From the IMG/VR virus record IMGVR_UViG_3300028392_000057: a DNA stretch of 64,000 bases. One strand, written 5' to 3'. The notes under the pieces are model-generated. The model ran no database searches and had not been told where the DNA came from. It was given only the letters and a program-made list of their open reading frames with translations. This document shows, in pieces, positions 16,731 to 27,436 of this stretch; within the stretch, counting starts at the first letter, position 1, and the number at the start of each line of letters is the position of its first letter. This stretch comes from an uncultured virus (IMG/VR IMGVR_UViG_3300028392_000057). Taxonomy: Duplodnaviria > Heunggongvirae > Uroviricota > Caudoviricetes. The position numbers and the translations under genes are program-made.

Positions 16731-16775
16731 GTGGACCTATATTTTTTTTAAAAAATATCAATTATACTACTTATT

Positions 16776-16849
16776 TGGCATCCCCCGAGGGACTCGAACC
16801 CCCACTAACGGTTTTGGAGACCGCAGTACTGCCATTATACTAGAGAGAC
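16776..16849 (-). tRNA. tRNA-Trp(CCA)
   Basis: Cloverleaf, loop CT-CCA-AA, encoded CCA end. Confidence 0.9.
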
Positions 16850-16854
16850 ATTGT

Positions 16855-17076
16855 TTATAAATTTTTTCTAATACGTTTGAGATATTCTCGTCCAACTAGT
16901 CCAGCTTCAATTTCCATTAATGCAGTTACAGTGGGTCCTGCTTTTGTATTGAGCAATGATTTATGCCCACGCTTTAATTCTCTTACACGTTGTGAGGCAA
17001 TAAGAACTAAATCAAATCGACTACCGACCATGAGTGCGGCTTCTTCACTTGTATATCTTGCTCTGCTTTCAGTCAT
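16855..17076 (-). CDS. rpoZ: DNA-directed RNA polymerase subunit omega
   Basis: ARYT...SRFDLVLIASQRVREL...PTVTALMEIEAG matches the RpoZ consensus. Confidence 0.9.
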   Translation of the reverse strand: MTESRARYTSEEAALMVGSRFDLVLIASQRVRELKRGHKSLLNTKAGPTVTALMEIEAGLVGREYLKRIRKNL

Positions 17077-17101
17077 ATCATCTTTCTATTGTTAAACTTG
17101 G

Positions 17102-17242
17102 TTATCTTGTTACTTTTCTAATCAACTTGTACCAATAGTATTTGAAACCACGAAATACAAGTATATCAAAACTAATTGTAGGATTAACTTCTTTCACAAT
17201 GTGACCGTATGCTCTGTTGATTACATCTTCACTTTTGCTCAT
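17102..17242 (-). CDS. Small hypothetical protein
   Basis: AAGGAG RBS; start trimmed to MSKSEDV. Confidence 0.6.
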   Translation of the reverse strand: MSKSEDVINRAYGHIVKEVNPTISFDILVFRGFKYYWYKLIRKVTR

Positions 17243-17257
17243 AATTACTCCTTTGTT

Positions 17258-17333
17258 TGGTGGGTCGTGAGAGACTCGAACTCCCGACATTCTGCGTGTA
17301 AGGCAGACGCTCTACCAACTGAGCTAACGACCC
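17258..17333 (-). tRNA. tRNA-Val(TAC)
   Basis: Cloverleaf, CT-TAC-AC loop, CCA. Confidence 0.95.
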
Positions 17334-17338
17334 GATAT

Positions 17339-17518
17339 TTAACCACCTTGGTTACTATCTTTAACTTCTGTTTGATTAGCAATTTTTTCAAACGCTTCAT
17401 CTTCATTCTGTTGATCCTCAATAGTTCTTGGATCAGGCTTGCGAAAAATATTGTTCCAGTTGTTGTCAAATGTATTTAAATCAACACTGTATGGTCTTGG
17501 CAAGCTACCTTTAGTCAT
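17339..17518 (-). CDS. Small hypothetical protein, 59 aa (MTKGSLPRPYSVD...)
   Basis: Coupled to the upstream ORF; KGSxPRP motif; absent from the ORF track. Confidence 0.65.
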   Translation of the reverse strand: MTKGSLPRPYSVDLNTFDNNWNNIFRKPDPRTIEDQQNEDEAFEKIANQTEVKDSNQGG

Positions 17519-17682
17519 TTGCTATTATCCTTACGAGAACTTGTACGTGAATTGCTTTTTTCAATCTCTACAAAACTACGAATAAAAGCTCCACGTACAT
17601 GTGCATCACGAATAAGTGTTGCCGCACGTTTAACTGCTTTGGGAAGTTTAACTGCCCGTGAATCATATCCTCTACATGTCAT
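17515..17682 (-). CDS. Small basic hypothetical protein
   Basis: AAGGA RBS; start trimmed to MTCRGYD. Confidence 0.65.
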   Translation of the reverse strand: MTCRGYDSRAVKLPKAVKRAATLIRDAHVRGAFIRSFVEIEKSNSRTSSRKDNSK

Positions 17683-17704
17683 AACATTTCCTTTTAAAAA
17701 ACTA

Positions 17705-17781
17705 TGGTCGGAGTACAAAGATTCGAACTTTGGACCCCCTGGTCCCAAACCAGGTGCGCTACCAGACTGCGCTACACTCCG
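17705..17781 (-). tRNA. tRNA-Pro(TGG)
   Basis: Cloverleaf, TT-TGG-GA loop, CCA. Confidence 0.95.
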
Positions 17782-17785
17782 TAAC

Positions 17786-17860
17786 TGGATGCGGGGGACG
17801 GATTCGCACCGCCGATCTTCAGGTTATGAGCCTGATGAGTTACTACTTCTCTACCCCGCG
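17786..17860 (-). tRNA. tRNA-fMet(CAT), initiator type
   Basis: CGCGGGG start with C1:A72 mismatch, CT-CAT-AA loop. Confidence 0.9.
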
Positions 17861-17866
17861 CTATCT

Positions 17867-17940
17867 TGGTGGAGGATAACAGAATCGAACTGTTACGAAG
17901 ACCTTGCAAAGGTCCCAGGCTCCCATTACATCAATCCCCC
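17867..17940 (-). tRNA. tRNA-Ala(TGC)
   Basis: G3:U70 pair, TT-TGC-AA loop, CCA. Confidence 0.9.
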
Positions 17941-18017
17941 AAACTAAAACATACTAACCATTCTGTTACCACTGTATACCTACAGCTTGTATCCATCTGT
18001 TTAATATGTTTTAGTTT
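17941..18017 (-). ncRNA. Stalk-enclosed RNA element A
   Basis: 17-bp closing duplex filling the whole gap between tRNA-Leu and tRNA-Ala. Confidence 0.6.
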
Positions 18018-18093
18018 GGTGCCCTAGGAGAGACTCGAACTCTCAGCTTACGGCTTCTAAGACCGCTGTGTCTACCAATTTCACCACCAGGGC
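18017..18093 (-). tRNA. tRNA-Leu(TAG), short variable arm
   Basis: CT-TAG-AA loop, 77 nt, CCA. Confidence 0.9.
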
Positions 18094-18101
18094 ATTTTAC
18101 T

Positions 18102-18130
18102 ATTATAACAAAAAACTATTTATCTGTCAA
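18102..18130 (-). promoter_or_regulatory. Sigma70-type promoter inside the tRNA array
   Basis: TTGACA-17 nt-TATAAT. Confidence 0.85.
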
Positions 18131-18158
18131 TACTATTGGTCAACAACTAAATATATAT

Positions 18159-18719
18159 ATGATTACATCCGAACAACTATATGAGTTAAACTTACCGGCA
18201 TTCAGTGAGGTAACATTGCCTTCCTTTAAGGGATTTGATGATGACCATTTACCATTTAATTATATGAGACTAGATAGAATCGATCATATTTTTAAACCAG
18301 AATATATTAATCTTTTGGGTTTAAATTGGTGTAAACTAAGTTATTTTAAAAAAACAGATTTCAAAGGAGCATTGCATTCAGATGCAATAGTTCCTGAAGA
18401 TTTTATGTTTGGCATTAATTGGATAGACGGTGGTACAGGTGTACTAGAATTTTATGACCATGATGAGGTTGAAGTAGATGGAATTACTGGTGGGGCTTTA
18501 AATAAAGATAACTGGGGAGTAGTTACAAAATACAAACCTATACTTACTCCTAGCAAACAGTATGATACAAACAACAATAAGGCATACTTAGTAAATGCTT
18601 CTACAATACACCGAGCAATTGGAATTGGACCAAGAAAATGTTACAGCCTTCGAACTAATGACAGACGTATAGCATGGGATGATATCGTTAAACTTTTTTC
18701 TAACCTTATTATACGATAA
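18159..18719 (+). CDS. Putative Fe(II)/2OG oxygenase- or cupin-like protein
   Basis: GALHSD...IHRAIG...RKCYSLR (HxD...H...R pattern). Confidence 0.5.
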   Translation: MITSEQLYELNLPAFSEVTLPSFKGFDDDHLPFNYMRLDRIDHIFKPEYINLLGLNWCKLSYFKKTDFKGALHSDAIVPEDFMFGINWIDGGTGVLEFYDHDEVEVDGITGGALNKDNWGVVTKYKPILTPSKQYDTNNNKAYLVNASTIHRAIGIGPRKCYSLRTNDRRIAWDDIVKLFSNLIIR

Positions 18720-18722
18720 TTT

Positions 18723-18796
18723 TGGAGCGGGGTAGGAGAATCGAACTCCTTTGACTAGCTTGGAAGGCTAGGACACAACCAATATGCCAACCCCGC
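18723..18796 (-). tRNA. tRNA-Gly(TCC)
   Basis: CT-TCC-AA loop, U73, CCA. Confidence 0.95.
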
Positions 18797-18804
18797 ATAT
18801 ATTC

Positions 18805-18880
18805 TGGAGTAGGTGACAGGGATCGAACCTGCATAGCACGGATTTGCAATCCGCTACCTAACCATTCGGTACACACCTAC
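18805..18880 (-). tRNA. tRNA-Cys(GCA)
   Basis: TT-GCA-AA loop, U73, CCA. Confidence 0.9.
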
Positions 18881-18883
18881 ATA

Positions 18884-18974
18884 AAAGCATATTGAAACAC
18901 ACTAACTACCTTGGTATGTACTAAGGTTCAATGAACCGATACGACCCTATCTTTAATGTATTTCAATATGCTCT
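18884..18974 (-). ncRNA. Stalk-enclosed RNA element B
   Basis: 22-bp closing duplex whose G:U pairs work only on the minus strand. Confidence 0.6.
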
Positions 18975-19168
18975 GCATCCCCCGGCGGTAATTATAGAGT
19001 ATCAAGATATGACGCTATCATACCCATCACACACTCCTTCCACCCGCTTCCCGACAGGGACCGTTCTCGCATTGCTAGCGGCCTTTAGGTTTAAAGACTA
19101 CCACCCGTACATGTCACTGTACTTCTCATCGTGTGGGTCACACTATCCGAAGACACCCGGAACGTTCG
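18975..19168 (-). ncRNA. Structured ncRNA candidate of unknown class (~190 nt)
   Basis: GC-rich non-coding segment with several complementary arms (GGTGGTAGT/ATTACCGCC, GTCTTT/AAAGGC, CCGCT/AGCGG). Confidence 0.6.
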
Positions 19169-19203
19169 GTATAAATACAGTCTTAAACATAAGACTGTAT
19201 TAA

Positions 19204-19812
19204 ATGATTTATACTTTGCAATTACCTAAACCATCTGATAACTTAATTAACTTAGTTAAATCAGTCGCTCTAGATCGACCAATAAATGTTAGTTCTAGAA
19301 ATTGGCACAGTTCAATACAAGGTCCTGATATTAACTGTGCCGCTGGTGATTTTTTTTCTAACGACAGTATTAATCTCATAGCTACACAAGAATTCCAGCC
19401 ATTGTTTAAGCATAAACTATATGCAACAATTGGTGTTATACATAATATAAATCCTATAGAATTTGCATCATATCCACCACACTCTGATAGAGTGCGAACA
19501 GCAAGTATAAATTTTTATATTGAGTTAGGTGGAGATAATGTTAGCACTATCTTTTATGATAAAGAAGATTTAGCAAGTGATACTGTAGGAGGAAATGTAC
19601 TTACATATAAAGAGGTATCTGCACAACAAGAATATTTTTTTAATACTGGTACTTGGTATCTAATGAATAGCAGAAACTTTCACAGTGTGGAAAATATCAA
19701 AACCACACGAATTATTTTCGGGTTATCATTCTTAAATATTAGCATTGAAGAATTACTAAAAAGTTTGGCGGAGAGTGTGGGATTCGAACCCACGCACCGT
19801 TATTCACAGTGA
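19204..19812 (+). CDS. Putative Fe(II)/2OG oxygenase- or cupin-like protein
   Basis: YPPHSD...FHSVEN...TRIIFGL; TATAAATA upstream; 3' end overlaps tRNA-Ser antisense. Confidence 0.55.
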   Translation: MIYTLQLPKPSDNLINLVKSVALDRPINVSSRNWHSSIQGPDINCAAGDFFSNDSINLIATQEFQPLFKHKLYATIGVIHNINPIEFASYPPHSDRVRTASINFYIELGGDNVSTIFYDKEDLASDTVGGNVLTYKEVSAQQEYFFNTGTWYLMNSRNFHSVENIKTTRIIFGLSFLNISIEELLKSLAESVGFEPTHRYSQ

Positions 19813-19854
19813 CAGATTAGCAATCTGCTGGTTTAACCACTCACCCAACTCTCC
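19766..19854 (-). tRNA. tRNA-Ser(GCT)
   Basis: Long variable arm, TT-GCT-AA loop, G73, CCA. Confidence 0.95.
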
Positions 19855-19862
19855 TAAATACA

Positions 19863-19939
19863 TGGTACCCCCGCTGGGATTTGAACCCAGAAAAACGGCT
19901 TATGAGGCCGGCATTATAACCTGATTTAATTAAAGGGGC
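19863..19939 (-). tRNA. tRNA with CAT anticodon (Ile2/lysidine type or Met)
   Basis: CT-CAT-AA loop, GCCCC acceptor stem, CCA; imperfect stems. Confidence 0.75.
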
Positions 19940-19948
19940 ATCATTCTT

Positions 19949-20033
19949 TGGTGCGGGCACCCGGACTCGAACCGGGATGCACAAGGCGATAGATTTTAAG
20001 TCTATTGGGTCTAACCAATTTCCCCATGCCCGC
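19949..20033 (-). tRNA. tRNA-Leu(TAA)
   Basis: CT-TAA-AA loop, variable arm, CCA. Confidence 0.95.
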
Positions 20034-20050
20034 ATTTATAAACAATCTGT

Positions 20051-20079
20051 ATTATATATCAAATAGTTTTTGTTGTCAA
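20051..20079 (-). promoter_or_regulatory. Sigma70-type promoter inside the tRNA array
   Basis: TTGACA-17 nt-TATAAT. Confidence 0.85.
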
Positions 20080-20085
20080 ATATTT

Positions 20086-20160
20086 TGGCGGTCCCAGCGG
20101 GTAACGATCCCGCTCCTCATGCGTGACAGGCATGTATGCGTCCGTGAACACTTTGAGACC
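20086..20160 (-). tRNA. tRNA-Asp(GTC), atypical T-loop
   Basis: CT-GTC-AC loop, G73, CCA; T-loop ATCGTTA. Confidence 0.85.
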
Positions 20161-20165
20161 AATAT

Positions 20166-20250
20166 TGGTGGAGATTACTGGGATTGAACCAGTCGTGCCA
20201 TAAGGCGGCGGATTTACAATCCACTGCATCACCATTGATGCTTCATCTCC
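20166..20250 (-). tRNA. tRNA-Tyr(GTA)
   Basis: TT-GTA-AA loop, variable arm, CCA. Confidence 0.9.
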
Positions 20251-20255
20251 AAAAT

Positions 20256-20456
20256 TAGTATAAGCTACTTGTTTCCACGCCAGCCCTTAATTGAGCGGTT
20301 ACTCTGTCCATCTCATTTATTCAAAGTCTGTGTGCAGTTGAGATTCTGCCTATCAGAGCCTGCGAGGGTATTTTTAATCCTCACGCTAACGGTTTTCTGC
20401 CACCGGATCTCTGTCGCTAATCAAACGCTATTTTAACGAAAATAGTAACGGGATAC
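20256..20456 (-). ncRNA. Structured ncRNA candidate of unknown class (~200 nt)
   Basis: Fills the gap between tRNA-Glu and tRNA-Tyr; hairpins CTATTTT/AAAATAG and GCGTGAGG/CCCTCGC; ATCTCA/TGAGAT pairing. Confidence 0.6.
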
Positions 20457-20532
20457 TGGAGCTCGGTACGGGATTCGAACCCGTGTGAATGCCGTGAAAG
20501 GGCACTATCCTAGGCCGCTAGATGAACCGAGC
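20457..20532 (-). tRNA. tRNA-Glu(TTC)
   Basis: CT-TTC-AC loop, CCA. Confidence 0.9.
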
Positions 20533-20540
20533 CAAATATT

Positions 20541-20660
20541 ATTAGTTTTGCTGACGCACTGTTTGCTATGTCTCAACGGAATTGGTGGCCACACTACCGT
20601 TTATATACATAGTTACTCAGGGTTGACGTTTCCCCCATGGCTTACATCAGCAAAACTAAT
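20541..20660 (-). ncRNA. Structured ncRNA candidate (120 nt) with 18-bp closing stem
   Basis: ATTAGTTTTGCTGATGTA...TGCGTCAGCAAAACTAAT. Confidence 0.6.
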
Positions 20661-20665
20661 AACAC

Positions 20666-20900
20666 ACTATATGAAAACACATTATGGGAACTACATTCGT
20701 CTGTCCAGGACCGTCTCCTGTACCCCGGCTTGTACACCGGGAACTCTGAACTTCGTCATTACTGCCTAACTGCCCGTCACGTTCATAACTTTCGTTATCA
20801 TACGCTTCCTGATGTATGTCTCGGCGTGTATCCGTCGATACCCTTATAACCTTCGTACATCCTAACGGATCAGGTAACCCTTAATATGTTTACATATAGT
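20666..20900 (-). ncRNA. Stalk-enclosed RNA element C (~235 nt, internally structured)
   Basis: 19-bp closing duplex; internal hairpins ATAACGAAAGTTAT, CCCGG-TGTACAAG-CCGGG, CAGGA/TCCTG. Confidence 0.65.
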
Positions 20901-20936
20901 CCCTGTAACTTGTACAGGGCTATATGATAACTTAAC

Positions 20937-20948
20937 TTTTTAAAGAAC
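20937..20948 (-). promoter_or_regulatory. boxA-like antitermination element
   Basis: GTTCTTTAAAAA about 40 nt downstream of the promoter at 20989-21017. Confidence 0.55.
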
Positions 20949-20988
20949 TTTGTTGATTAGTACGATGACTTTTTCAACTCATGCTATG

Positions 20989-21017
20989 ATTGTATCACAA
21001 TCACCATTTATTGTCAA
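20989..21017 (-). promoter_or_regulatory. Sigma70-type promoter
   Basis: TTGACA-17 nt-TACAAT. Confidence 0.8.
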
Positions 21018-21070
21018 ATTCTTTTTTGTGTCTCTGTGTCCAAGAACTTGTTCAATCAATCTATACATAG

Positions 21071-21099
21071 AGTATAGCACTATTTGGATTTATTGTCAA
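21071..21099 (-). promoter_or_regulatory. Sigma70-type promoter (tandem with the 20989 promoter)
   Basis: TTGACA-17 nt-TATACT. Confidence 0.75.
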
Positions 21100-21128
21100 A
21101 CTATTAGTTGTTGTAAATAAACAACATT

Positions 21129-21203
21129 TGGTCCGGGGTACAGGAATCGAACCTGTATTGACTGCTTAGAAGGCAGCTGTATTATCCATTATACTAACCC
21201 CAG
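21129..21203 (-). tRNA. tRNA-Arg(TCT)
   Basis: CT-TCT-AA loop, CCA. Confidence 0.9.
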
Positions 21204-21224
21204 ATAGATTTTTGGCTTGTCTAT

Positions 21225-21253
21225 ATTATAGCAGAATACTCATTTAGTGTCAA
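21225..21253 (-). promoter_or_regulatory. Sigma70-type promoter
   Basis: TTGACA-17 nt-TATAAT with TG extension. Confidence 0.85.
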
Positions 21254-21256
21254 GCC

Positions 21257-22435
21257 CTACATCTTCTGACGATACCATTTACGGACAACACCCTCAGCGA
21301 TCTTACCTCGTATATCTTCACTATACGGTGAATTTAAATGCCTTGGCAATGTATAATTGCTAGGAAAATTGTTATAACTGTCAATGCTCATTCCCAAAAA
21401 CCAATTGCCCATGTTGTAACTCAATACCGTAAATAGTGCTTCATATTCATCGGCTTGCTCCTGTTCGTCCGTTACTAAATTAATTAGGTTGTTGTATATA
21501 TTATCAGGATCAATATTGTCTCCGTCAAAACTGTGAATTGCCATATCAGCTATCCAAATTGGTTTTTTATATTTTTGATTAACTAATTCAAAAAACTTAA
21601 TAGTGTCTACACCATTTGTATTATTTTTCCAACCTGCAATCAAATCAGCAACTGTTGGATTATTTGAATTAGTTAAGTATTTAGGAAACCATCCTACACC
21701 AATAATATCCAATTTACTTAATATAGTCTCACCAACCATATCAACCTGATTTTTTCCATTGTAGTACATTCCATTTGAATATATTACAGTGGTTAATTGT
21801 CCTTTATATACCTTGCGTATTTCTGTAATGAGATTTAACCAACCATTTTGATTTTTAACATCATACGTTAGATGTTGAACCTCATCTCCTATAATTACAA
21901 ATCTATCCACAGATCCTTGCTGTGCTATATTTGCTATTCTTGACATACTACTAGTATGGTTAGATATCCATTCGTCAAAATTAGAAGGTGATGAATGAAC
22001 AGTACTTAACAAATTGGTAACGTTTGTATTTTTATGTACAAAAGGGTAAACTGTTATAGTTAAACCTGCCGCTTTAAGCTTTCGAAAGAATGTTAGCAAA
22101 TCATTGTCACTTGGATTAAAGTTAATATTTGAATTAGGACTATTAGAAGATGGGGTATCGTAATACCCTGCACTAATCGTTACTTTAACATCATTAGCAC
22201 CCAATGCTTTAATGTTTTTAATATGGTCATCAATGTTAGTCCATCCGGGTAGTCCTAACAGGCTATCACTATTTAAAACCATGTTTACACTTTTAATAGC
22301 AAACTTGTTTTTTATATTGTTATCTATAATTTGAGGATATGCTTCAATGATAGGTGTAGTTGGTTGACCACCTCCGCCACCGCATCCTACAAGTATGATT
22401 GCTAATATCGTACTAGCAATAGAATTAATTCTCAT
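21257..22435 (-). CDS. Lipoprotein, GH113-like TIM-barrel glycoside hydrolase
   Basis: Lipobox ILVGC followed by GGGGG; IIGDEV, LITEIRKVYKGQLT and EQEQADEYEALF motifs. Confidence 0.65.
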   Translation of the reverse strand: MRINSIASTILAIILVGCGGGGGQPTTPIIEAYPQIIDNNIKNKFAIKSVNMVLNSDSLLGLPGWTNIDDHIKNIKALGANDVKVTISAGYYDTPSSNSPNSNINFNPSDNDLLTFFRKLKAAGLTITVYPFVHKNTNVTNLLSTVHSSPSNFDEWISNHTSSMSRIANIAQQGSVDRFVIIGDEVQHLTYDVKNQNGWLNLITEIRKVYKGQLTTVIYSNGMYYNGKNQVDMVGETILSKLDIIGVGWFPKYLTNSNNPTVADLIAGWKNNTNGVDTIKFFELVNQKYKKPIWIADMAIHSFDGDNIDPDNIYNNLINLVTDEQEQADEYEALFTVLSYNMGNWFLGMSIDSYNNFPSNYTLPRHLNSPYSEDIRGKIAEGVVRKWYRQKM

Positions 22436-22557
22436 GGAAAACTCCGTATTTAATGATGTGTTTTTTATACAAATAATCAGCGGGTTTTATTATAAACATA
22501 CCTGCTAAATCAATCTATACATATATTATAGTACCGATTGAATTTATTGTCAAATTT

Positions 22558-22612
22558 TGGTCTATAGTACAAAAATAGAACCTGTATTGATTGCTTAGAA
22601 GGCTAACCCCAG
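22558..22612 (-). pseudogene. Degenerate tRNA-Arg(TCT) copy
   Basis: AACCTGTATTGAttGCTTAGAAGGC and CTAACCCCAGATA match 21129-21206, with the D-arm deleted. Confidence 0.75.
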
Positions 22613-22624
22613 ATAAATAGTCGT

Positions 22625-23206
22625 ATGGAAAACAACACCTTATACGATGAACTAGAATTACCCAAAAATTGTACTCCCGATGATATCAAACAAAAATATA
22701 GAATACTAGCACAAACACATCATCCCGATAAAGGTGGTGATATAGAAAAATTTAAACGAATCAAATTAGCATATGAAACATTAAGTGATCCTGTTAAACG
22801 TGAACACTATGATAGTACCGGAGATCATTATGATGATACCAATCTTGATGCTGAAGTTTATGCAAGACTTTCAAATATGGTATCACAATACAGTCAACAG
22901 ATAAATCCAGAATTTGACGATTTAATTTTACAAATGAAGTTTGACATACATCATGCACAAAATCAAACCAATACTGCTATAGTAGATTGTAACGCTCTAA
23001 TAACAAAATTGAACATTGTTGCAAAAAAAATCAAATTAAAAAAAGAGGGTGATAATATATTAAAATCTTTTGTTGAGAAAAAAATAAACATTCATCATAC
23101 TGAACTGGTAAATCATAAAAGAGCCTTAATAGTTTTTTCACGAATGTTAGAAATATTAGAAGATTACCATTATAGTCATAGTGACTGGCAACTTCTAATT
23201 CAATGA
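22625..23206 (+). CDS. DnaJ-domain (J-domain) protein
   Basis: LYDELEL...HHPDKGGD...AYETLSDPVKREHYD. Confidence 0.9.
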   Translation: MENNTLYDELELPKNCTPDDIKQKYRILAQTHHPDKGGDIEKFKRIKLAYETLSDPVKREHYDSTGDHYDDTNLDAEVYARLSNMVSQYSQQINPEFDDLILQMKFDIHHAQNQTNTAIVDCNALITKLNIVAKKIKLKKEGDNILKSFVEKKINIHHTELVNHKRALIVFSRMLEILEDYHYSHSDWQLLIQ

Positions 23207-23281
23207 TGGTCCGGCGTGCAGGAATCGAACCCACATTCATCGGGTAGAAGCCGATTGTATTATCCATTATACTAACGCCAG
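23207..23281 (-). tRNA. tRNA-Arg(TCT), second copy
   Basis: ATCGG-CTTCTAC-CCGAT anticodon arm, CCA. Confidence 0.85.
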
Positions 23282-23292
23282 CTACTTTGTTG

Positions 23293-23892
23293 TCAATAAC
23301 TTTGACCGTTTTTGTATCGCTCTCGGCGCGAATGTCTACCCTTACCTTTATTTTTTGCTTTGTATGTTGGGGTTTGGCTATGACAATTTGGGCATAATAA
23401 ACATAAATTTTCAGGAGTATTATTATCACTGTTTCCGTCTCTATGCTCAAGCTCTAATGTTATATTTTTTCCATTCCACTCAGCGATACCGCATTCAGCA
23501 CATTTACTATCCTGTTGTTCTTTGATATGCCGGCGAACAGCAGATAATCCCGTTATTGTTTCCCTTGCAATCCATTTTCTAATAGTTTCTGCTGATTGAA
23601 AATCTTGCTGACAACGAACCGAACAATATTTACTATTTTTTCCAATTAGCTTACTACATTGAGGACAACTATTAGTTGAAACAATTAATCTTTTTGTATT
23701 ATTATGTGATGCAGAGCAAGATGAATTACAAAATTTTTTATATCTACCCTCATAATTAATGAGTGCATTACAATGCCCACATTTTTTTGGGTTAGACAGA
23801 TATGCTTCTATATTTGCTTGCTTTTTTTTTGCTGTAATTAGTGCAGAAACTTCTGCGCCTAATTTACCTGCTTGTGATTTGCTCATTTTCAT
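23293..23892 (-). CDS. HNH homing endonuclease
   Basis: LELEHRDGNSDNNTPENLCLLCPNCHSQT; Zn-finger repeats. Confidence 0.9.
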   Translation of the reverse strand: MKMSKSQAGKLGAEVSALITAKKKQANIEAYLSNPKKCGHCNALINYEGRYKKFCNSSCSASHNNTKRLIVSTNSCPQCSKLIGKNSKYCSVRCQQDFQSAETIRKWIARETITGLSAVRRHIKEQQDSKCAECGIAEWNGKNITLELEHRDGNSDNNTPENLCLLCPNCHSQTPTYKAKNKGKGRHSRRERYKNGQSY

Positions 23893-23949
23893 AGTTGAAC
23901 TTTCTTGTATACTAGTATTTAGTCCTCAACTCTAAAAACAGCATTTATT

Positions 23950-24023
23950 TGGTGCCCCACGACAGAATTGAACTGCCATCACAGGATTACAAAACCAGTG
24001 TACTACCATTGTACTAGTAGGGC
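23950..24023 (-). tRNA. tRNA-Thr(TGT)
   Basis: TT-TGT-AA loop, CCA; mismatched anticodon stem. Confidence 0.85.
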
Positions 24024-24030
24024 GGAAATT

Positions 24031-24106
24031 TGGCTCCTTGAACACGGTTCGAACGTGTGACCCAAGCATTAACAGTGCTTTGCTCTACCGACTGAGCTAT
24101 CAAGGA
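24031..24106 (-). tRNA. tRNA-Asn(GTT)
   Basis: CT-GTT-AA loop, G73, CCA. Confidence 0.95.
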
Positions 24107-24135
24107 ATATGTATTTTATTTAATAATATTGTACA

Positions 24136-24696
24136 CTAACTTAATAATATTCTACTATGTTTTGGAACACCTGCTAACAAATATTCCATTTGGTCAGCAA
24201 GTATAGTTCTATGTTGTAGTATCATATTTTCGTAGTGATTTGGGACATAAGGTGCGTATAATAATTCCATACGTACTTCTTTTAAACTCTTATGTCCTTT
24301 TTTACTGTTACAAGTTTTACAACTGGTAACCACGTTCATCCAAGTGTTTTCACCACCCTTACTTCTAGGGACAATGTGGTCACGACTTAATAGATGATAA
24401 TTGGGAAACTGTTCACCGCAATAAGCACATACATGTCTATCACGACCGAACAATGTTTTATTAGTTAGTGCTACACATGAGTGTTTATATGGATTGAATC
24501 CATGACCTTTGATGGCAATAATGCTACTAGCTTCTAAGTAACTTAATGTGCCGTCATTTTGTGTGCCACCTCGATATCTAGCCACAATGTTCCCCATTGA
24601 CCATGCAATGGCATCTTTTGCTTTATAGGTAATTGCGTCATCATTTGATATCCATTGCCGGGGAACTCCCGAGATATCTAGTGCTAGAACAGCCAT
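24136..24696 (-). CDS. HNH endonuclease (McrA-like)
   Basis: LFGRDRHVCAYCG...DHIVPRSKGG...NVVTSCKTCNSKKG; start trimmed to the Met after AAGGAG. Confidence 0.9.
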   Translation of the reverse strand: MAVLALDISGVPRQWISNDDAITYKAKDAIAWSMGNIVARYRGGTQNDGTLSYLEASSIIAIKGHGFNPYKHSCVALTNKTLFGRDRHVCAYCGEQFPNYHLLSRDHIVPRSKGGENTWMNVVTSCKTCNSKKGHKSLKEVRMELLYAPYVPNHYENMILQHRTILADQMEYLLAGVPKHSRILLS

Positions 24697-24744
24697 GTAG
24701 TACTCCTTTTCTGTTATTATCACTAATTGTATTTAATCACTTGT

Positions 24745-24819
24745 TGGCGGGTCCTGCAGGAATTGAACCCACATCCCGAAGTTCGAAGCATCGTATTCTA
24801 TCCATTGAACTAAGGACCC
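24745..24819 (-). tRNA. tRNA-Arg(TCG)
   Basis: CT-TCG-AA loop, CCA. Confidence 0.85.
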
Positions 24820-24825
24820 AATAAA

Positions 24826-24978
24826 GGTGGGAGCCTAACTATCTTATTGTTAATAAGCCTCATTAGATTGTCTCGTATAGGCAAGTTTATACTACCCGTC
24901 AATCATACTATAGTGTCATCACAGTTAACCCCACTGTGATTAGATTGACAGGGACTTAAACCTATCGTCTATCCCATA
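24826..24978 (-). ncRNA. Structured ncRNA candidate (~150 nt)
   Basis: Nested arms TGGGA/TCCCA, ATAGG/CCTAT, TGTCAATC/GATTGACG, ATCACAGT/ACTGTGAT. Confidence 0.6.
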
Positions 24979-24983
24979 AACAG

Positions 24984-25538
24984 TTAATTTTCAAGTAAAT
25001 AAATAGGGTCTTTGTCAAAAGCTAATGATAGTGTAATTCTAGGCACAGGATTATCTATGGGTAAATACACACTATGCAATACTTTTGTTCTTAACACCGT
25101 CGCTTGTTTTATTTCTACTCTATCAACTAATACTAGATTTTCATACTTATCAGCCATGAAACAGAATCTCCCACCACCATCTGGATTAACATATCTTGGA
25201 GATTCAGTGTCACTAGTATAAAAATTAGTATATGTGTCTTGACAATTTAGTAATGGTAAATTTACTCTGGCGTGTGAAGGGTAAGCGTCAATATGAGGTC
25301 TACTGTGTTTAGGTAAATACATTACATAGACTGCTGCCATTATAATTTTTAAGTCATGTTTTTGAAATGCCAATTGAAGTTCGGGGCATACCTTCATTAA
25401 CATTTCTAAATCAAGATAATACCAATTAGTATTTGCCAACGATCTAGTATAGGCTCTATCGACTGTTTTTACGTATGCTAAACATTTATTTATAATGGTA
25501 GCAAAATAATCTATTTCTAATGGTTTATAATAAATCAT
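24984..25538 (-). CDS. Putative Fe(II)/2OG oxygenase- or cupin-like protein
   Basis: SRPHID...LHSVY...PRITLSL; start trimmed to MIYYKPL. Confidence 0.55.
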   Translation of the reverse strand: MIYYKPLEIDYFATIINKCLAYVKTVDRAYTRSLANTNWYYLDLEMLMKVCPELQLAFQKHDLKIIMAAVYVMYLPKHSRPHIDAYPSHARVNLPLLNCQDTYTNFYTSDTESPRYVNPDGGGRFCFMADKYENLVLVDRVEIKQATVLRTKVLHSVYLPIDNPVPRITLSLAFDKDPIYLLEN

Positions 25539-25552
25539 TCTATATTTATCAC

Positions 25553-25627
25553 TGGCACCCCCTGATGGATTCGAACCACCGAATGTCGGAATCAAAATCC
25601 GAGGCCTTACCGCTTGGCGAAGGGGGT
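25553..25627 (-). tRNA. tRNA-Gln(TTG)
   Basis: TT-TTG-AT loop, CCA. Confidence 0.95.
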
Positions 25628-25632
25628 ATAAA

Positions 25633-25709
25633 TGGTAGCCTCACTCTGACTCGAACAGAGGACCTATGCGTTATCAACACATTGCTCTAACCAACTGAGC
25701 TATGAGGCT
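25633..25709 (-). tRNA. tRNA-Ile(GAT)
   Basis: TT-GAT-AA loop, CCA. Confidence 0.95.
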
Positions 25710-25713
25710 GTAA

Positions 25714-25788
25714 TGGTGGATGTAAGTAGATTTGAACTACTGACCTATTCCGTATGAAGGAATTGCACTACCGCTGTGCTATACATCC
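25714..25788 (-). tRNA. tRNA-Met(CAT), elongator type
   Basis: TT-CAT-AC loop, paired G1:C72, CCA. Confidence 0.85.
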
Positions 25789-25789
25789 T

Positions 25790-25866
25790 TGGGGTGCTTG
25801 ATGGGATTCGAACCCACGTATATCGGAATCACAATCCGAGGTCTTAACCGCTTGACGACAAGCACC
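25790..25866 (-). tRNA. tRNA-His(GTG)
   Basis: TT-GTG-AT loop, G-1:C73, CCA. Confidence 0.95.
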
Positions 25867-25867
25867 A

Positions 25868-25957
25868 TGGTAGAAACGGTGAGATTCGAACTCACGGACC
25901 CTTTCGGATCGACAGTTTTCAAGACTGTTGCAATAGGCCGGACTCTGCCACGTTTCC
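25868..25957 (-). tRNA. tRNA-Ser(TGA)
   Basis: CT-TGA-AA loop, long variable arm, CCA. Confidence 0.95.
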
Positions 25958-26143
25958 TTAGGCTTTTTTATCTATTTGATTATTATAATGTGTAGGCTCT
26001 AATTTACCTACTTTATCGTATAGATACTGTACAACCTCTAAGTATTGCTTATTAGTTGCAGGATCTTCTAATGTTTTATAAACTGTTGTGCGATATTGAT
26101 GATTGGTAATATCGTTTACTGCTGATATGGTTTGAATTATCAT
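25958..26143 (-). CDS. Small hypothetical protein
   Basis: Start trimmed to MIIQTISAV; TATAAATA just upstream. Confidence 0.55.
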   Translation of the reverse strand: MIIQTISAVNDITNHQYRTTVYKTLEDPATNKQYLEVVQYLYDKVGKLEPTHYNNQIDKKA

Positions 26144-26156
26144 GCAGTATTTATAC

Positions 26157-26233
26157 TGGTGGAAGCAGAGGGATTCGAACCCTCGACTCACGGATTAAAA
26201 GTCCGTTACTCTAGCCAACTGAGTTATGCTTCC
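26157..26233 (-). tRNA. tRNA-Lys(TTT)
   Basis: CT-TTT-AA loop, CCA. Confidence 0.95.
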
Positions 26234-26239
26234 ATATAT

Positions 26240-26316
26240 TGGTGCGACCGGAGAAATTCGAATTCCCGACTCCTAAGTTCGTAGCCTAGTACTCTATCCA
26301 TCTGAGTTACGGTCGC
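26240..26316 (-). tRNA. tRNA-Arg(ACG)
   Basis: CT-ACG-AA loop, CCA. Confidence 0.95.
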
Positions 26317-26403
26317 ATTCTAAAACACACCTAGTACTCCCTGATCTAATGGGTCTAGCGTTTTCAGCTAATATTGTTTTTCACTAGGTATATTTTAGAA
26401 TGC
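26315..26403 (-). ncRNA. Stalk-enclosed RNA element D
   Basis: 21-bp closing duplex with two G:U pairs, abutting the tRNA-Arg 5' end. Confidence 0.6.
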
Positions 26404-26548
26404 CGTGTATCTCTACACGACATGGTAGGGTTAATACCCTACCCAGTAGTCTTACTAACATGTTGTCTCCATGCTTTCATGTGTACTGTCCGCCCATTCG
26501 ATACATTTAACGCTGTATTCCGGCTCTCGTTGCCTATTCACGCTGTCA
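26401..26548 (-). ncRNA. Structured ncRNA candidate (~150 nt)
   Basis: Hairpins GGTAGGG-TATTAA-CCCTACC, TGTCGTGTA-GAGA-TACACGGCA, CATG-AAAG-CATG. Confidence 0.55.
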
Positions 26549-26716
26549 TCAATCAGTATAAGTTAGTCGGTTGACTTTCTTAACAGCCTCTTGATAGACT
26601 TTAGCACGGTCGATCTTATTTTGTATCAACTGTGCTACTTGCTCCTTCGTCAGAACATGATTGCTAAACCAATCACGCTTTGTTTCAGTAGTTTTGTATT
26701 GTATCTCTTTATCCAT
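26549..26716 (-). CDS. Small protein, 55 aa (MDKEIQYKTTETKRDWFSNHVLTKEQVAQLIQNKIDRAKVYQEAVKKVNRLTYTD)
   Basis: GAGAGGA RBS; first ORF after the attenuator terminator; absent from the ORF track. Confidence 0.65.
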   Translation of the reverse strand: MDKEIQYKTTETKRDWFSNHVLTKEQVAQLIQNKIDRAKVYQEAVKKVNRLTYTD

Positions 26717-26726
26717 TTATTGTCAA
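26698..26726 (-). promoter_or_regulatory. Sigma70-type promoter overlapping the 55-aa ORF start
   Basis: TTGACA-17 nt-TACAAT. Confidence 0.6.
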
Positions 26727-26736
26727 ATCCTCTCTG

Positions 26737-26777
26737 TAAAAGCAAAAACCCCTGAGATTTCTTAGTTCCCAGGGGTT
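26737..26777 (-). terminator. Intrinsic terminator of the leader (attenuator)
   Basis: ACCCCTGGGA-ACTAAGAAA-TCTCAGGGGT followed by TTTTGCTTTT. Confidence 0.85.
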
Positions 26778-26805
26778 AGATAAAAGTAGTTATGATGTTA
26801 ACTTG

Positions 26806-26943
26806 TTACCTAGTCCCCGGGCTTATCTCTTGGTTATCATTTGAGCCACGAATACTTGATGGATATGCTGGCACAAAGGATGCACTGGCTAACGTTAGCC
26901 ACTGTCCGATATGTTTCAGCATGTTACAAGGTTTATTCATCAT
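26806..26943 (-). CDS. Putative attenuator leader peptide, 45 aa, containing all 20 amino acids
   Basis: MMNKPCNMLKHIGQWLTLASASFVPAYPSSIRGSNDNQEISPGTR*; lies between promoter and terminator; last codons complementary to the terminator 5' arm. Confidence 0.75.
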   Translation of the reverse strand: MMNKPCNMLKHIGQWLTLASASFVPAYPSSIRGSNDNQEISPGTR

Positions 26944-26978
26944 AGTTTTTATTTAGTCCTGTTCTTCAACTAATATGT

Positions 26979-27007
26979 ATTATAGCAGGATTTTAAATTA
27001 TTGTCAA
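26979..27007 (-). promoter_or_regulatory. Consensus sigma70 promoter heading the leader and tRNA array
   Basis: TTGACA-17 nt-TATAAT with extended -10 TG. Confidence 0.9.
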
Positions 27008-27045
27008 CAGTTTTTTGTAGTTGTTTTCCCAAAGTATGTTTTTAA

Positions 27046-27366
27046 TTAAAGAGTTGCAGGATCTACTTCTACGAATCCGTCATGTAAGATAGTTGTGACA
27101 ATATTATGTTCAGCGTTATATGCAGTTCTCCCTGGAGTACTACTTAATGCAGCCATTGCGGTACGATATGTTAAATATTGTTCCTCTGTGTTAAAATACA
27201 ATGCAAACTTTTTGGTATTTACATCTTCTAATGTGTATTTACAATAAGTTACGATACTGTTCAGTGTGTTCCAACGTATGTCTGATTCAACTACGTATTG
27301 GTTAGGCCACCAAATAGCGTCAGCTGGTTTAGTCTGTCGTGTTTCAAATAAATAATATGTAGTCAT
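27046..27366 (-). CDS. Hypothetical protein
   Basis: GAGGA RBS; start trimmed to MTTYYLF. Confidence 0.65.
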   Translation of the reverse strand: MTTYYLFETRQTKPADAIWWPNQYVVESDIRWNTLNSIVTYCKYTLEDVNTKKFALYFNTEEQYLTYRTAMAALSSTPGRTAYNAEHNIVTTILHDGFVEVDPATL

Positions 27367-27436
27367 GTTAGTTGTCCTCAACTGTATTTATCATAAATTT
27401 AATATTTTTGCACAATGTAGTTATATAAATACGGGT

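What the first reader, a model, noticed from the sequence alone, without database searches (positions are those of the whole stretch)
26737..27007. Candidate whole-tRNA-pool-sensing attenuator: an all-20-amino-acid leader peptide heading the phage tRNA array
Seen in sequence (minus strand): a consensus promoter (27007-26979), then a 45-codon ORF (26943-26806), MMNKPCNMLKHIGQWLTLASASFVPAYPSSIRGSNDNQEISPGTR*, then a strong intrinsic terminator (26777-26737), then the array. The peptide contains every one of the 20 amino acids and uses 36 distinct codons in 45 positions: all three Ile codons, GGA/GGC/GGG, CCT/CCA/CCG, CTG/CTA/TTA, four Ser codons, CAA/CAG and CGT/AGG. That is unusual for this AT-biased genome. 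The last codons (CCCGGGGACTAGG, 26821-26809) can pair with the 5' arm of the terminator (TCTAACCCCTGGG, 26780-26768) as 7 bp plus 4 bp around a 2x2 loop, giving a mutually exclusive antiterminator. Established knowledge: trp/his/ilv-type attenuators have this layout but use runs of one or a few amino acids. Inference: a ribosome that finishes the leader masks the antiterminator so transcription stops, whereas a stall at almost any upstream codon permits read-through. The phage would then raise downstream tRNA/ncRNA/protein output when any host tRNA is uncharged or cleaved, for example by anticodon-nuclease defences. Caveat: further promoters lie downstream, including one at 26726-26698, so control may cover only part of the array.
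Basis: partly seen in the sequence, partly recalled or inferred. Interest (0 to 1): 0.93.

Follow-up and report, generated by a model that had tools for sequence, protein, structure and literature searches.

The report
All-amino-acid leader switch before tRNAs
An uncultured giant phage places a tiny gene that spells all 20 amino acids, wired to a stop/go RNA switch, in front of its tRNA genes, probably so that transcription runs on whenever ribosomes decode any amino acid too slowly.

Summary
The 45-codon ORF (26943-26806, minus strand) lies between a perfect sigma-70 promoter and a hairpin followed by a U-tract. It holds all 20 amino acids in 36 distinct codons. In this genome's long ORFs, 0.83% of 45-codon windows have all 20 amino acids, 0.02% have 36 or more codons, and none has both.

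A search anchored only on the 5'UTR found at least 118 related phage loci. They give 81 distinct peptides of 40-70 aa, and 73 contain all 20 amino acids, although even the single Cys, Trp, His, Asp and Glu change position. So composition is selected, not sequence.

The last codons and the stop codon form the 5' strand of an antiterminator that pairs with the terminator's 5' arm. Compensatory changes support this in two clades with different architectures. The 20th amino acid is always reached just upstream of that strand. The element heads the tRNA array in 41 of 47 loci.

Best reading, at about 0.65: a ribosome-dependent attenuator. Finished translation gives termination, and a stall at almost any codon gives read-through. 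Read-through enters a small ORF that only this transcript can express, then an unclassified structured RNA, then the tRNAs.

Function is untested, and downstream promoters limit its control of the array. I found no published account.

The parts
26979..27007 (-). Promoter P1, TTGACA-17-TATAAT with TG extension
   Evidence: 12 of 12 matches. A TTGACA...TAnnnT promoter is aligned at the same place in most relatives.
26944..26972 (-). 5' UTR with the family-wide motif AGGACUAAAUAA..ACU just before the AUG. The hairpin that most relatives carry here is missing in this window, a 39-nt gap against the second copy.
   Evidence: alignments. The motif alone retrieved at least 118 loci. The AGGA lies 13 nt from the AUG, which is atypical for this genome.
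26806..26943 (-). Leader ORF: 45 codons plus UAA, all 20 amino acids, 36 distinct codons
   Evidence: Frame kept in relatives and all-20 kept in 73 of 81 distinct peptides.
26806..26821 (-). 5' strand of the antiterminator: CCCGGGG (helix 1), AC, UAGGUAA (helix 2, includes the stop codon)
   Evidence: 95.4% and 86.6% of cells paired, with compensatory pairs 22-75 and 32-65; best upstream partner of the terminator arm in 36 of 36. The nucleotides are kept even where the reading frame over them shifts.
26768..26783 (-). 3' strand of the antiterminator: UUAUCUA, AC, CCCUGGG. It overlaps the terminator 5' arm.
26738..26775 (-). Intrinsic terminator: CCCCUGGG, 11-nt loop, CUCAGGGG, UUUUUGCUUUU
   Evidence: 93.6% of cells paired and 3 pairs with compensatory change in 38 sequences.
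26698..26726 (-). Promoter P2, TTGACA-17-TACAAT, conserved in most relatives
   Evidence: 11 of 12. (alignment and downstream sequences).
26549..26716 (-). ORF2, 55 aa, no known family. Its AUG (26716-26714) lies between the -35 and -10 of P2, so only P1 read-through RNA can carry it.
   Evidence: An ORF2 of 48-55 aa is present in 32 of 38 relatives. No Pfam or PHROG match above threshold. No lead from the Atlas.
26317..26548 (-). Structured RNA of no known family that ends at the 5' end of the first tRNA. It is the most constant downstream partner of the leader.
   Evidence: z = -6.68. (40 pairs, 30 with compensatory changes, 34 sequences). (no Rfam match). (it follows the terminator directly in some relatives).
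16776..26316 (-). tRNA array: 25 genes by ARAGORN plus tRNA-Tyr(GTA) at 20169-20250. No tRNA-Phe.

Best explanation
This is a ribosome-dependent transcription attenuator whose leader peptide has been selected to contain every amino acid.

Proposed sequence of events:
1. RNA polymerase starts at P1 and transcribes the 45-codon leader.
2. The leader's last five codons and stop codon (CCCGGGG-AC-UAGGUAA) can pair with UUAUCUA-AC-CCCUGGG. That segment includes most of the terminator's 5' arm.
3. If a ribosome translates the leader to its end in time, it covers or unwinds this strand. The terminator hairpin and U-tract then form and the transcript ends near 26738-26748.
4. If the ribosome is delayed at any earlier codon, or no ribosome is loaded, the antiterminator forms first. 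Polymerase then reads on into ORF2, the structured RNA and the first tRNAs.

All 20 amino acids lie upstream of the antiterminator strand. Usually so do both codon boxes of Leu, Ser and Arg, and both AUY and AUA for Ile. A shortage of almost any charged tRNA would therefore raise read-through.

Shown here: the anatomy, selection on composition, and conservation and covariation of both structures.
Inferred: translation of the leader, the timing between ribosome and polymerase, and the response to tRNA supply.
For: (1) Composition is selected, not sequence.
- The search anchored on the 5'UTR gave 118 loci. 115 hold a complete ORF, giving 81 distinct peptides of 40-70 aa. 73 have all 20 amino acids, 7 have 19, and 1 (L115, apparently unrelated) has 18.
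- The single Cys, Trp, His, Asp, Glu and Val sit at different positions in different clades.
- Column shuffling gives a mean of 15.1 of 35 peptides with all 20 (maximum 23 in 2000 shuffles), against 32 observed. For eight clade representatives it gives 2.75 against 7 of 8 observed (P = 0.0006).
- Controls: ORF2 in the same loci has all 20 in 0 of 32. None of 11 chance pattern matches in bacterial genomes has such an ORF.
- Only 24% of codon differences are synonymous, which I take (from memory, not a call) to be close to neutral. The peptide sequence itself is barely constrained.

(2) tRNA species are sampled, not only amino acids.
- Distinct codons average 34.7 against 30.6 expected from each peptide and the genome's codon usage. 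All 39 sequences lie above expectation.
- All eight groups (Leu UUR and CUN, Ser UCN and AGY, Arg CGN and AGR, Ile AUY and AUA) are present in 53 of 80 ORFs, against 13.5 expected.

(3) Alternative structures.
- Terminator: 93.6% of cells paired and 3 compensatory pairs.
- Short-clade antiterminator helix 1: 95.4% paired, with C-G changed to U-A in two separate lineages.
- Short-clade helix 2: 86.6% paired against 46-49% when slid by one column. Pair 32-65 changes from G-C to A-U or U-A in 5 sequences.
- Long clade (51-59 aa): a different 23-bp antiterminator with the stop codon in its apical loop. 91.4% paired against 47-50% when slid, with 4 compensatory pairs.
- The G-run nucleotides persist where the reading frame over them shifts.
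- The ORF end is the best upstream partner of the terminator arm in 36 of 36 sequences, median -15.4 kcal/mol against -9.8 for the next best site. In the wider set it is best in 58 of 71.
- The nascent-RNA MFE pairs ORF end with arm in 31 of 36. A footprint mask at the stop codon restores the terminator in 34 of 36.

(4) Positional logic. In 59 of 59 all-20 peptides with a clear G-run, the 20th amino acid is reached 5-19 nt before the run. A nominal stalled-ribosome edge lies upstream of the run in 33, where permutation expects 11.4.

(5) Context.
- Same-strand tRNAs follow in 41 of 47 loci. Five of the six misses hold under 700 nt of downstream DNA. No locus has a tRNA upstream.
- Both tRNA arrays of this record are headed by a copy of the element.
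- ORF2's AUG lies inside P2, so ORF2 needs read-through.
Against: - No direct expression data. The only RNA-library data are contigs of relatives, which cannot show 3' ends or strand.
- P2 directly follows the terminator and five further 12-of-12 promoters lie in the array. Control of tRNA output can be only partial.
- The completing residues (Glu, Asp, Gln) sit at the very edge of the proposed sensing zone. With a footprint of A-site + 11 nt, the stall would abut the G-run in 18 peptides and cover 1-4 nt of it in 8 of 59. By a stricter criterion the zone holds all 20 in only 14 of 77 peptides. Glu in particular may be sensed poorly.
- Seven relatives have the hairpin followed by only 2-3 U.
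- The AGGA lies 13 nt from the AUG, outside the usual 5-10 nt of this genome. Translation is inferred only from frame and composition.
- No upstream protector or pause hairpin was found, so synchrony of ribosome and polymerase is unexplained.
- In this window the terminator's upper stem is weakened and the unconstrained full-length MFE is the antiterminator fold. The switch may be leaky here.
- Sequences are related, so cell counts overstate the number of independent events.
- 7 of 80 family peptides lack one amino acid.
- The host is unknown.
Confidence: 0.65

Rival explanations
1. The same switch acts as a sensor of general translation capacity (ribosome availability, host shut-off, ribosome-targeting inhibitors, loss of coupling) and not of the charged-tRNA pool. 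The all-20 content would serve another purpose or be a side effect.
For: With no ribosome on the leader the antiterminator is the default fold (31 of 36). Any loss of translation would therefore give read-through. Known switches with the same logic respond to many stresses. Examples are the whiB7 uORF (passages read) and toiL (abstract).
Against: A general sensor needs no particular composition. Yet all 20 amino acids are kept by relocation in 73 of 81 peptides. Both codon boxes of the split amino acids are kept in 53 of 80, against 13.5 expected. The set is completed just before the antiterminator strand.
Confidence: 0.12
2. Translation of the leader toggles the two RNA folds, but the output is not intrinsic termination. 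The conserved hairpin would be a processing, stability or protein-binding site, or a Rho-related signal. Alternatively it would control ORF2 translation.
For: Seven relatives carry the same hairpin with only 2-3 U behind it. P2 already supplies transcripts of the downstream RNA genes. One RNA-library contig of a relative bridges the hairpin (record 17). That is a weak hint only.
Against: 71 of 80 examined relatives have the hairpin followed by 4 or more U. The window has UUUUUGCUUUU. ORF2's ribosome-binding region lies outside both folds.
Confidence: 0.1
3. The ORF encodes a small protein that acts as a product. The terminator simply ends its short mRNA, and the complementarity between ORF end and terminator arm is incidental.
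For: Part of the peptide is conserved in the closer relatives: SF(V/A)P(A/V)YPTSIRG. Two of my three searches were anchored on or near that part. Some leader peptides are reported to act in trans (peTrpL; search listing and abstract start only).
Against: Across the family the order of residues is free and only the composition is kept. Synonymous changes make up only 24% of codon differences. The G-run is kept as nucleotides across a frame shift. The pairing covaries in two architectures. No family matches in Pfam or PHROGs.
Confidence: 0.06
4. There is no regulation. P1, leader and terminator form an insulated, constitutive transcription unit or small RNA at the edge of the array, and the all-20 content is inherited by descent.
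For: Promoter and terminator alone would describe a stand-alone small RNA gene. Many counts come from related sequences.
Against: Descent alone does not explain relocation of single-copy residues with the set retained. It does not explain the compensatory changes in the antiterminator. It also does not explain an ORF2 whose start codon no other promoter can transcribe.
Confidence: 0.05

Closest known systems
Leader-peptide transcription attenuators of enterobacterial amino-acid operons (trpL, hisL, leuL, thrL, pheL, ilv leaders). Established knowledge, recalled.
   Same: A sigma-70 promoter and a short translated leader. An intrinsic terminator whose 5' arm can instead pair with an upstream strand. 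The position of the leading ribosome chooses the fold. A ribosome at the stop codon favours termination.
   Different: Those leaders carry runs of the one or few cognate codons. This one carries each amino acid once or a few times and keeps the full set. I found no 1:2-type protector or pause hairpin, so the untranslated default here is read-through. The downstream genes are a small ORF, a structured RNA and tRNAs in a phage, not biosynthetic enzymes.
whiB7 uORF attenuator of mycobacteria (bioRxiv 10.1101/2023.06.02.543512; passages read)
   Same: Efficient uORF translation gives a rho-independent terminator. Translation stress gives an antiterminator and read-through. [quoted passage not shown]
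   Different: Its uORF is enriched for alanine, with no reported selection for a complete amino-acid set. It controls a transcription factor of a cellular stress response, not RNA genes of a phage.
toiL uORF upstream of topAI in E. coli (eLife 2025, PMC12121999; abstract read)
   Same: One uORF senses many translation stresses through stalls at different positions that remodel downstream RNA structure.
   Different: It acts through occlusion of a ribosome-binding site and Rho-dependent termination. It is tuned to antibiotics. No composition rule is reported.
T-box riboswitches. Established knowledge, recalled.
   Same: They sense tRNA charging and decide between terminator and antiterminator.
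   Different: A T-box binds one specific tRNA directly and needs no translation. No T-box or any other Rfam family matches here.

Membership tests
Ribosome-dependent (leader-peptide) transcription attenuators | A short ORF in the 5' leader that is translated | tested here: inconclusive
   The frame is kept. All indels are multiples of three. There are no internal stops in 115 of 118 loci, and the composition is under selection. These argue for translation. There are no ribosome or peptide data, and the AGGA spacing of 13 nt is atypical.
Ribosome-dependent (leader-peptide) transcription attenuators | An intrinsic terminator between the leader and the downstream genes | tested here: met
   An 8-bp G+C-rich stem followed by UUUUUGCUUUU. 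Covariation. Hairpin followed by 4 or more U in 71 of 80 relatives.
Ribosome-dependent (leader-peptide) transcription attenuators | A mutually exclusive antiterminator that uses the terminator's 5' arm | tested here: met
   (pairing with compensatory changes in two clade-specific architectures); the ORF end is the best partner in 36 of 36.
Ribosome-dependent (leader-peptide) transcription attenuators | The leader ORF overlaps one strand of the switch, so ribosome position selects the fold | tested here: met
   The last 5 codons and the stop codon form the antiterminator 5' strand. In the long clade the stop codon lies in its apical loop. The mask test restores the terminator in 34 of 36.
Ribosome-dependent (leader-peptide) transcription attenuators | Regulatory codons enriched for the amino acid(s) of the regulated pathway | tested here: not met
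   There are no codon runs. Instead all 20 amino acids are present. This is the feature in which the element departs from the classical family.
Ribosome-dependent (leader-peptide) transcription attenuators | Read-through responds to translation of the leader or to tRNA charging | not testable with these tools
   This needs reporter, in vitro or 3'-end mapping experiments. RNA-library contigs cannot show ends.
trp-type attenuators specifically | An upstream protector or pause hairpin (1:2) that gives termination when the leader is not translated | tested here: not met
   In the nascent-RNA MFE the G-run pairs with the terminator arm in 31 of 36 sequences and with an upstream site in only 4. No conserved upstream partner was seen.
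T-box riboswitch (Rfam RF00230) and any other Rfam family | A match to the family covariance model | tested here: not met
   nothing but tRNAs reaches its gathering score. Only two weak terminator-like matches at E = 0.16 and 1.2 fall in 26300-27010.
Ribosome arrest peptides (SecM, TnaC type; recalled) | A conserved arrest motif at a fixed distance from the regulated element | tested here: inconclusive
   SIRG is kept in many members. The peptide is otherwise free to vary and residues relocate.

The most novel reading that the evidence does not exclude
The leader is a universal aminoacyl-tRNA gauge. One short reading frame samples all 20 amino acids, both codon boxes of Leu, Ser and Arg, and AUA, all upstream of an antiterminator. 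Loss or cleavage of any single tRNA species, for example by host anticodon nucleases or by decay of host tRNAs during infection, would then switch on read-through. Read-through enters ORF2, an unclassified structured RNA and the phage's own tRNA genes. This would be a self-correcting counter-defence loop for the translation supply of a giant phage.
Probability: 0.35. Interest if true: 0.95.

Novelty: new variant of a known kind. Interest (0 to 1): 0.85.

Why it matters
Classical attenuators each report on one or a few amino acids. A leader kept by selection to contain every amino acid and most split codon boxes would be the first switch known to monitor the whole charged-tRNA pool with one reading frame.

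It sits at the head of phage tRNA arrays. That gives a concrete, testable link between phage tRNA genes and the state of host translation, including tRNA-targeting defences, a question open for decades.

The promoter is a consensus sigma-70 site, so the prediction can be tested in a defined coupled system. Leave out one amino acid at a time and measure read-through.

The finding also points to two unstudied partners: a small ORF expressible only by read-through, and a well-supported structured RNA of no known family.

Tried and rejected
- BLAST of 26300-27400 against deposited phage genomes, near and distant modes: no match.
- Rfam: no family for the leader or the downstream RNA.
- PHROGs and Pfam: nothing for the leader, ORF2 or the upstream 111-aa ORF. 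Two sub-threshold Pfam hits for ORF2 (COMPASS-Shg1, NleF) lie below the curated cut-offs and I disregard them.
- Protein database search: one 45-aa relative only, because small ORFs are rarely called.
- Atlas search for ORF2: best score 0.76, no lead.
- The palindrome GGCUAACGUUAGCC inside the ORF is not conserved, so I rejected it as an element.
- A possible helix ACUUGU:ACAAGU between codons 5-7 and 29-30 appears in relatives' MFE folds. In this window its two end pairs are replaced by non-pairing bases, by my reading. I did not pursue it.
- The reading as a non-coding small RNA was suggested by 6 non-synonymous and 2 synonymous differences between the two copies (my count on the alignment). 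I rejected it because the frame is conserved, indels are multiples of three, and composition is under selection.
- In one search the columns E(antiterm) and ddG are unreliable. My forced pairs were mis-registered: the unconstrained MFE of the window RNA is an antiterminator fold at -61.8, yet the forced value was -55.8. I do not use them.
- In one search my script took a longer outer helix as the terminator arm in 8 sequences. In one search six peptides got a wrong partner. These rows are counted as misses.
- RNA-library contigs of four runs are relatives' contigs at 85-99% likeness. They cover parts of ORF1, ORF2 and the structured RNA. One (record 17) bridges the terminator. They show no starts, ends, strand or level, and DNA may be present in such libraries, so they are not evidence of regulation. 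Parts without cover mean nothing.
- The genome-contig scan with the 5'UTR pattern gave 11 matches, all chance.
Full report
**What is in the window**

On the minus strand, one search shows these features in order:
- A promoter, TTGACA-17-TATAAT, at 27007-26979. It matches 12 of 12 positions and has a TG extension.
- A 29-nt leader.
- A 45-codon ORF at 26943-26806.
- A 30-nt spacer.
- A hairpin: CCCCUGGG (26775-26768), an 11-nt loop, CUCAGGGG (26756-26749).
- UUUUUGCUUUU (26748-26738).
- A second promoter at 26726-26698, 11 of 12.
- A 55-aa ORF at 26716-26549.
- A 232-nt spacer.
- The first of 25 same-strand tRNA genes at 26316.

A 26th tRNA, Tyr-GTA at 20169-20250, was found only by Rfam.

**Where the window lies**

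The window is part of a 524,565-bp virus record. That record holds a second copy of the whole element, 91% identical, at the head of a second tRNA array of 31 genes. About 150 kb of the record exists in two inverted versions roughly 80% identical. It probably joins two related phage genomes. For this study that provides one natural comparison.

**Is the composition more than chance?**

In long ORFs of the same record:
- 0.83% of 45-codon windows hold all 20 amino acids (1103 of 132,830).
- 0.02% hold 36 or more codons (28).
- None holds both.
- Of 381 mechanical ORFs of 40-50 aa, only the two copies of this ORF hold all 20.

**Relatives**

Deposited phage genomes gave nothing. Exact-pattern scans of IMG/VR did.
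- A 20-mer at the ORF's 3' end found 31 loci.
- A degenerate 22-mer in the middle of the ORF found 47.

The third set is the fair sample, because nothing in its pattern depends on what the ORF encodes.
- 115 of the 118 loci hold a complete ORF, giving 81 distinct peptides of 40-70 aa.
- 73 contain all 20 amino acids and 7 contain 19. One, L115, looks unrelated and contains 18.
- The peptides differ greatly. The shortest all-20 member has 40 residues.
- The single Cys sits at position 6, 9, 15, 21, 24 or 37 in different lineages. Trp, His, Asp, Glu and Val move likewise.

Tests of selection on composition:
- Shuffling residues within alignment columns destroys the property. The mean is 15.1 of 35 peptides against 32 observed, with a maximum of 23 in 2000 shuffles. 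With one representative per clade below 75% identity the shuffle mean is 2.75 against 7 of 8 observed (P = 0.0006).
- Two controls behave normally. ORF2 in the same loci has 14-19 amino-acid types and never 20 (0 of 32). The 11 chance matches to the pattern in 185,579 bacterial and archaeal genomes have no such ORF.
- Indels inside the ORF are multiples of three.
- Only 24% of codon differences are synonymous.

So the frame and the composition are kept while the sequence drifts. That is what one expects if the act of decoding matters and the peptide does not.

**Codons**

- Given each peptide and this genome's codon usage, 30.6 distinct codons are expected and 34.7 are seen. All 39 sequences lie above expectation.
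- The ORFs also keep both codon boxes of Leu, Ser and Arg, and both AUY and AUA for Ile. All eight groups are present in 53 of 80, against 13.5 expected.
- The window's own array lacks a Phe tRNA although the leader has a Phe codon. The leader is therefore not simply matched to the phage's own tRNA set.

**The RNA switch, short clade**

In the short clade, to which the window belongs, CCCGGGG-AC-UAGGUAA pairs with UUAUCUA-AC-CCCUGGG. The first strand is the last five codons plus the stop codon. The second strand includes seven of the eight bases of the terminator's 5' arm. This fold is the unconstrained MFE of the window's full leader RNA.

On 38 aligned sequences:
- The terminator is 93.6% paired, with three pairs showing compensatory change.
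- Antiterminator helix 1 is 95.4% paired, with C-G replaced by U-A in two separate lineages. The other register fits worse at 81.5%.
- Helix 2 is 86.6% paired, against 46-49% when slid by one column. Pair 32-65 changes from G-C to A-U or U-A in five sequences.
- In L036, L048 and L071 the reading frame over the G-run is shifted (ending ...ARGTE) yet the nucleotides CCCGGGG remain. This shows a constraint at the RNA level.

**The RNA switch, long clade**

In the clade with longer leaders (51-59 aa, ending ...PGSFIEGAGYA) the antiterminator is built differently.
- CC(R)GGGG(A)GUUUCAUA pairs with UAUGAAACCCCUGG.
- A GGAG:CUCU helix follows.
- An apical hairpin holds the stop codon in its loop.
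- It has 23 pairs and is 91.4% paired, against 47-50% when slid. Four pairs show compensatory change.

Two architectures with one logic is the strongest argument that the competition between the folds is functional.

**Energetics and folding**

- The ORF end is the best upstream partner of the terminator arm in 36 of 36 sequences. The median is -15.4 kcal/mol, against -9.8 for the next site and -17.5 for the terminator itself.
- In the wider set it is the best partner in 58 of 71. Eight of the 13 misses are errors of my script.
- Folding the RNA as it exists before the terminator's 3' arm is made pairs the G-run with the arm in 31 of 36.
- Masking a ribosome footprint at the stop codon gives the terminator in 34 of 36.
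- The forced-energy columns are faulty and I do not use them.

**Positional logic**

If stalls are to be sensed, the codons must lie upstream of the antiterminator strand.
- In 59 of 59 all-20 peptides with a clear G-run, the 20th amino acid is reached 5-19 nt before the first G of the run. Codons over and behind the strand add nothing new. This includes the 12-15 extra codons of the long clade.
- With a nominal footprint of A-site + 11 nt, the stalled ribosome's edge lies upstream of the run in 33 peptides, at it in 18, and 1-4 nt into it in 8. Permutation of residues expects 11.4 in the first class.
- The completing residue is Glu (26), Asp (22), Gln (9), Trp (1) or Tyr (1).
- This is the weak point of the model. 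By the stricter criterion, all 20 lie clear of the whole strand in only 14 of 77 peptides, 19 in 36, and 18 in 18. Glu, Asp and Gln are the ones at the edge.
- A stall there may leave helix 2 and part of helix 1 free, which might still block the terminator. That is inference.

**What read-through would express**

- P2 is conserved and its -35 and -10 flank the AUG of ORF2. P2 transcripts therefore start behind that AUG, and only RNA from P1 that passes the terminator can encode ORF2.
- An ORF2 of 48-55 aa is present in 32 of 38 relatives. It has no known family.
- In other relatives the terminator is followed, with or without P2, directly by the next element. That element is a structured RNA that ends at the 5' end of the first tRNA.
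- In the window this RNA (26548-26317) folds with z = -6.68. Across 34 sequences RNAalifold predicts 40 pairs, 30 of them with compensatory changes. No Rfam family matches.
- Same-strand tRNAs follow the leader in 41 of 47 loci. Five of the six misses hold under 700 nt of downstream DNA. No locus has a tRNA upstream.
- Five more perfect promoters lie within the window's array. The switch can therefore modulate only part of tRNA transcription, but all of ORF2 expression.

**Expression data**

Four RNA-library runs hold contigs of relatives over parts of this stretch. One 346-nt contig bridges the terminator. Contigs show no ends or strand, and DNA may be present in such libraries. I draw no conclusion from them.

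**Comparison with what is known**

- The layout is that of leader-peptide attenuators of amino-acid operons (recalled knowledge). It departs from them in three ways: there are no codon runs, there is no protector hairpin so the untranslated default is read-through, and the target is different.
- The logic is the same as the whiB7 uORF attenuator. There, efficient uORF translation gives a rho-independent terminator and translation stress gives an antiterminator, and depletion of many amino acids induces it (passages read). That uORF is alanine-rich.
- toiL is another multi-signal uORF, but it works through Rho (abstract).
- I found no paper describing a leader with a complete amino-acid set or an attenuator ahead of phage tRNA genes. 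In searches I saw the listed top hits, and in one search both hits.
- Earlier notes of this scan report the same element in five other genomes with the same reading. They are not independent evidence. I had reached the reading before seeing them, and I tested its claims here.

**Verdict**

The most likely mechanism is a ribosome-dependent attenuator that terminates when the leader is translated to its end in time, and reads through when decoding of almost any codon lags (confidence 0.65).

It is a new variant of a known kind of switch. It is unusual enough, and easy enough to test in a defined system, to rank high.

Noticed in passing
window 26317-26548 (-): A structured RNA of no known family lies between ORF2 and the first tRNA and ends at the tRNA's 5' end. 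Its fold has z = -6.68. RNAalifold predicts 40 pairs, 30 with compensatory changes, in 34 sequences. 64 distinct homologues were seen. Invariant single-stranded motifs include AACGAG and GGGCGGAC. There is no Rfam match.
   Followed up: partly
window 26549-26716 (-): The start codon of the 55-aa ORF2 lies between the -35 and -10 of promoter P2, so only read-through RNA from P1 can encode it. The family motif is DW(F/L)..H.L(T/S).EQ...LI. No known family matches.
   Followed up: partly
window 20169-20250 (-): A 26th tRNA was missed by ARAGORN but scored 35.4 bits by Rfam. The anticodon loop reads GTA and there is a long variable arm, so it is tRNA-Tyr. The window's array has no tRNA-Phe, whereas the record's other array has one.
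   Followed up: partly
G000:C1 1-177,012 versus 360,000-524,565 (the window is 379,361-443,360): The 524,565-bp record holds two inverted, syntenic versions of about 150 kb at roughly 80% identity. It also holds a 4,089-bp direct repeat at 99.6% identity (172,924-177,012 and 520,477-524,565). There are two tRNA arrays, of 31 and 25 genes. It looks like two related phage genomes joined in one record. Other contigs with the element are 348-367 kb long.
   Followed up: partly
window 16272-27007 (-): Six perfect 12-of-12 sigma-70 consensus promoters lie in 12 kb, all on the tRNA strand: 27007, 22553, 21253, 20079, 18130 and 16300. None lies on the other strand.
   Followed up: no
L009 and L041 (same contig), first tRNA after the structured RNA: The tRNA-Arg(ACG) gene that follows the structured RNA in other relatives seems interrupted just after the anticodon region. 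ARAGORN finds no tRNA in the 1,522 nt held downstream of the mid-ORF anchor. This could be an insertion or an intron.
   Followed up: no
window 21257-22435 (-): A 392-aa ORF inside the tRNA array matches glycoside hydrolase family 113 (Pfam PF22612, E = 3.3e-17).
   Followed up: no
window 28140-28952 (-): A 270-aa ORF just upstream of the element has histidine-box motifs (HRIFSH, HHPYSD, HNNHHH) that I recall as typical of membrane fatty-acid desaturases (translation). Earlier notes of this scan describe a desaturase-containing enzyme island in related phages. I did not test this here.
   Followed up: no
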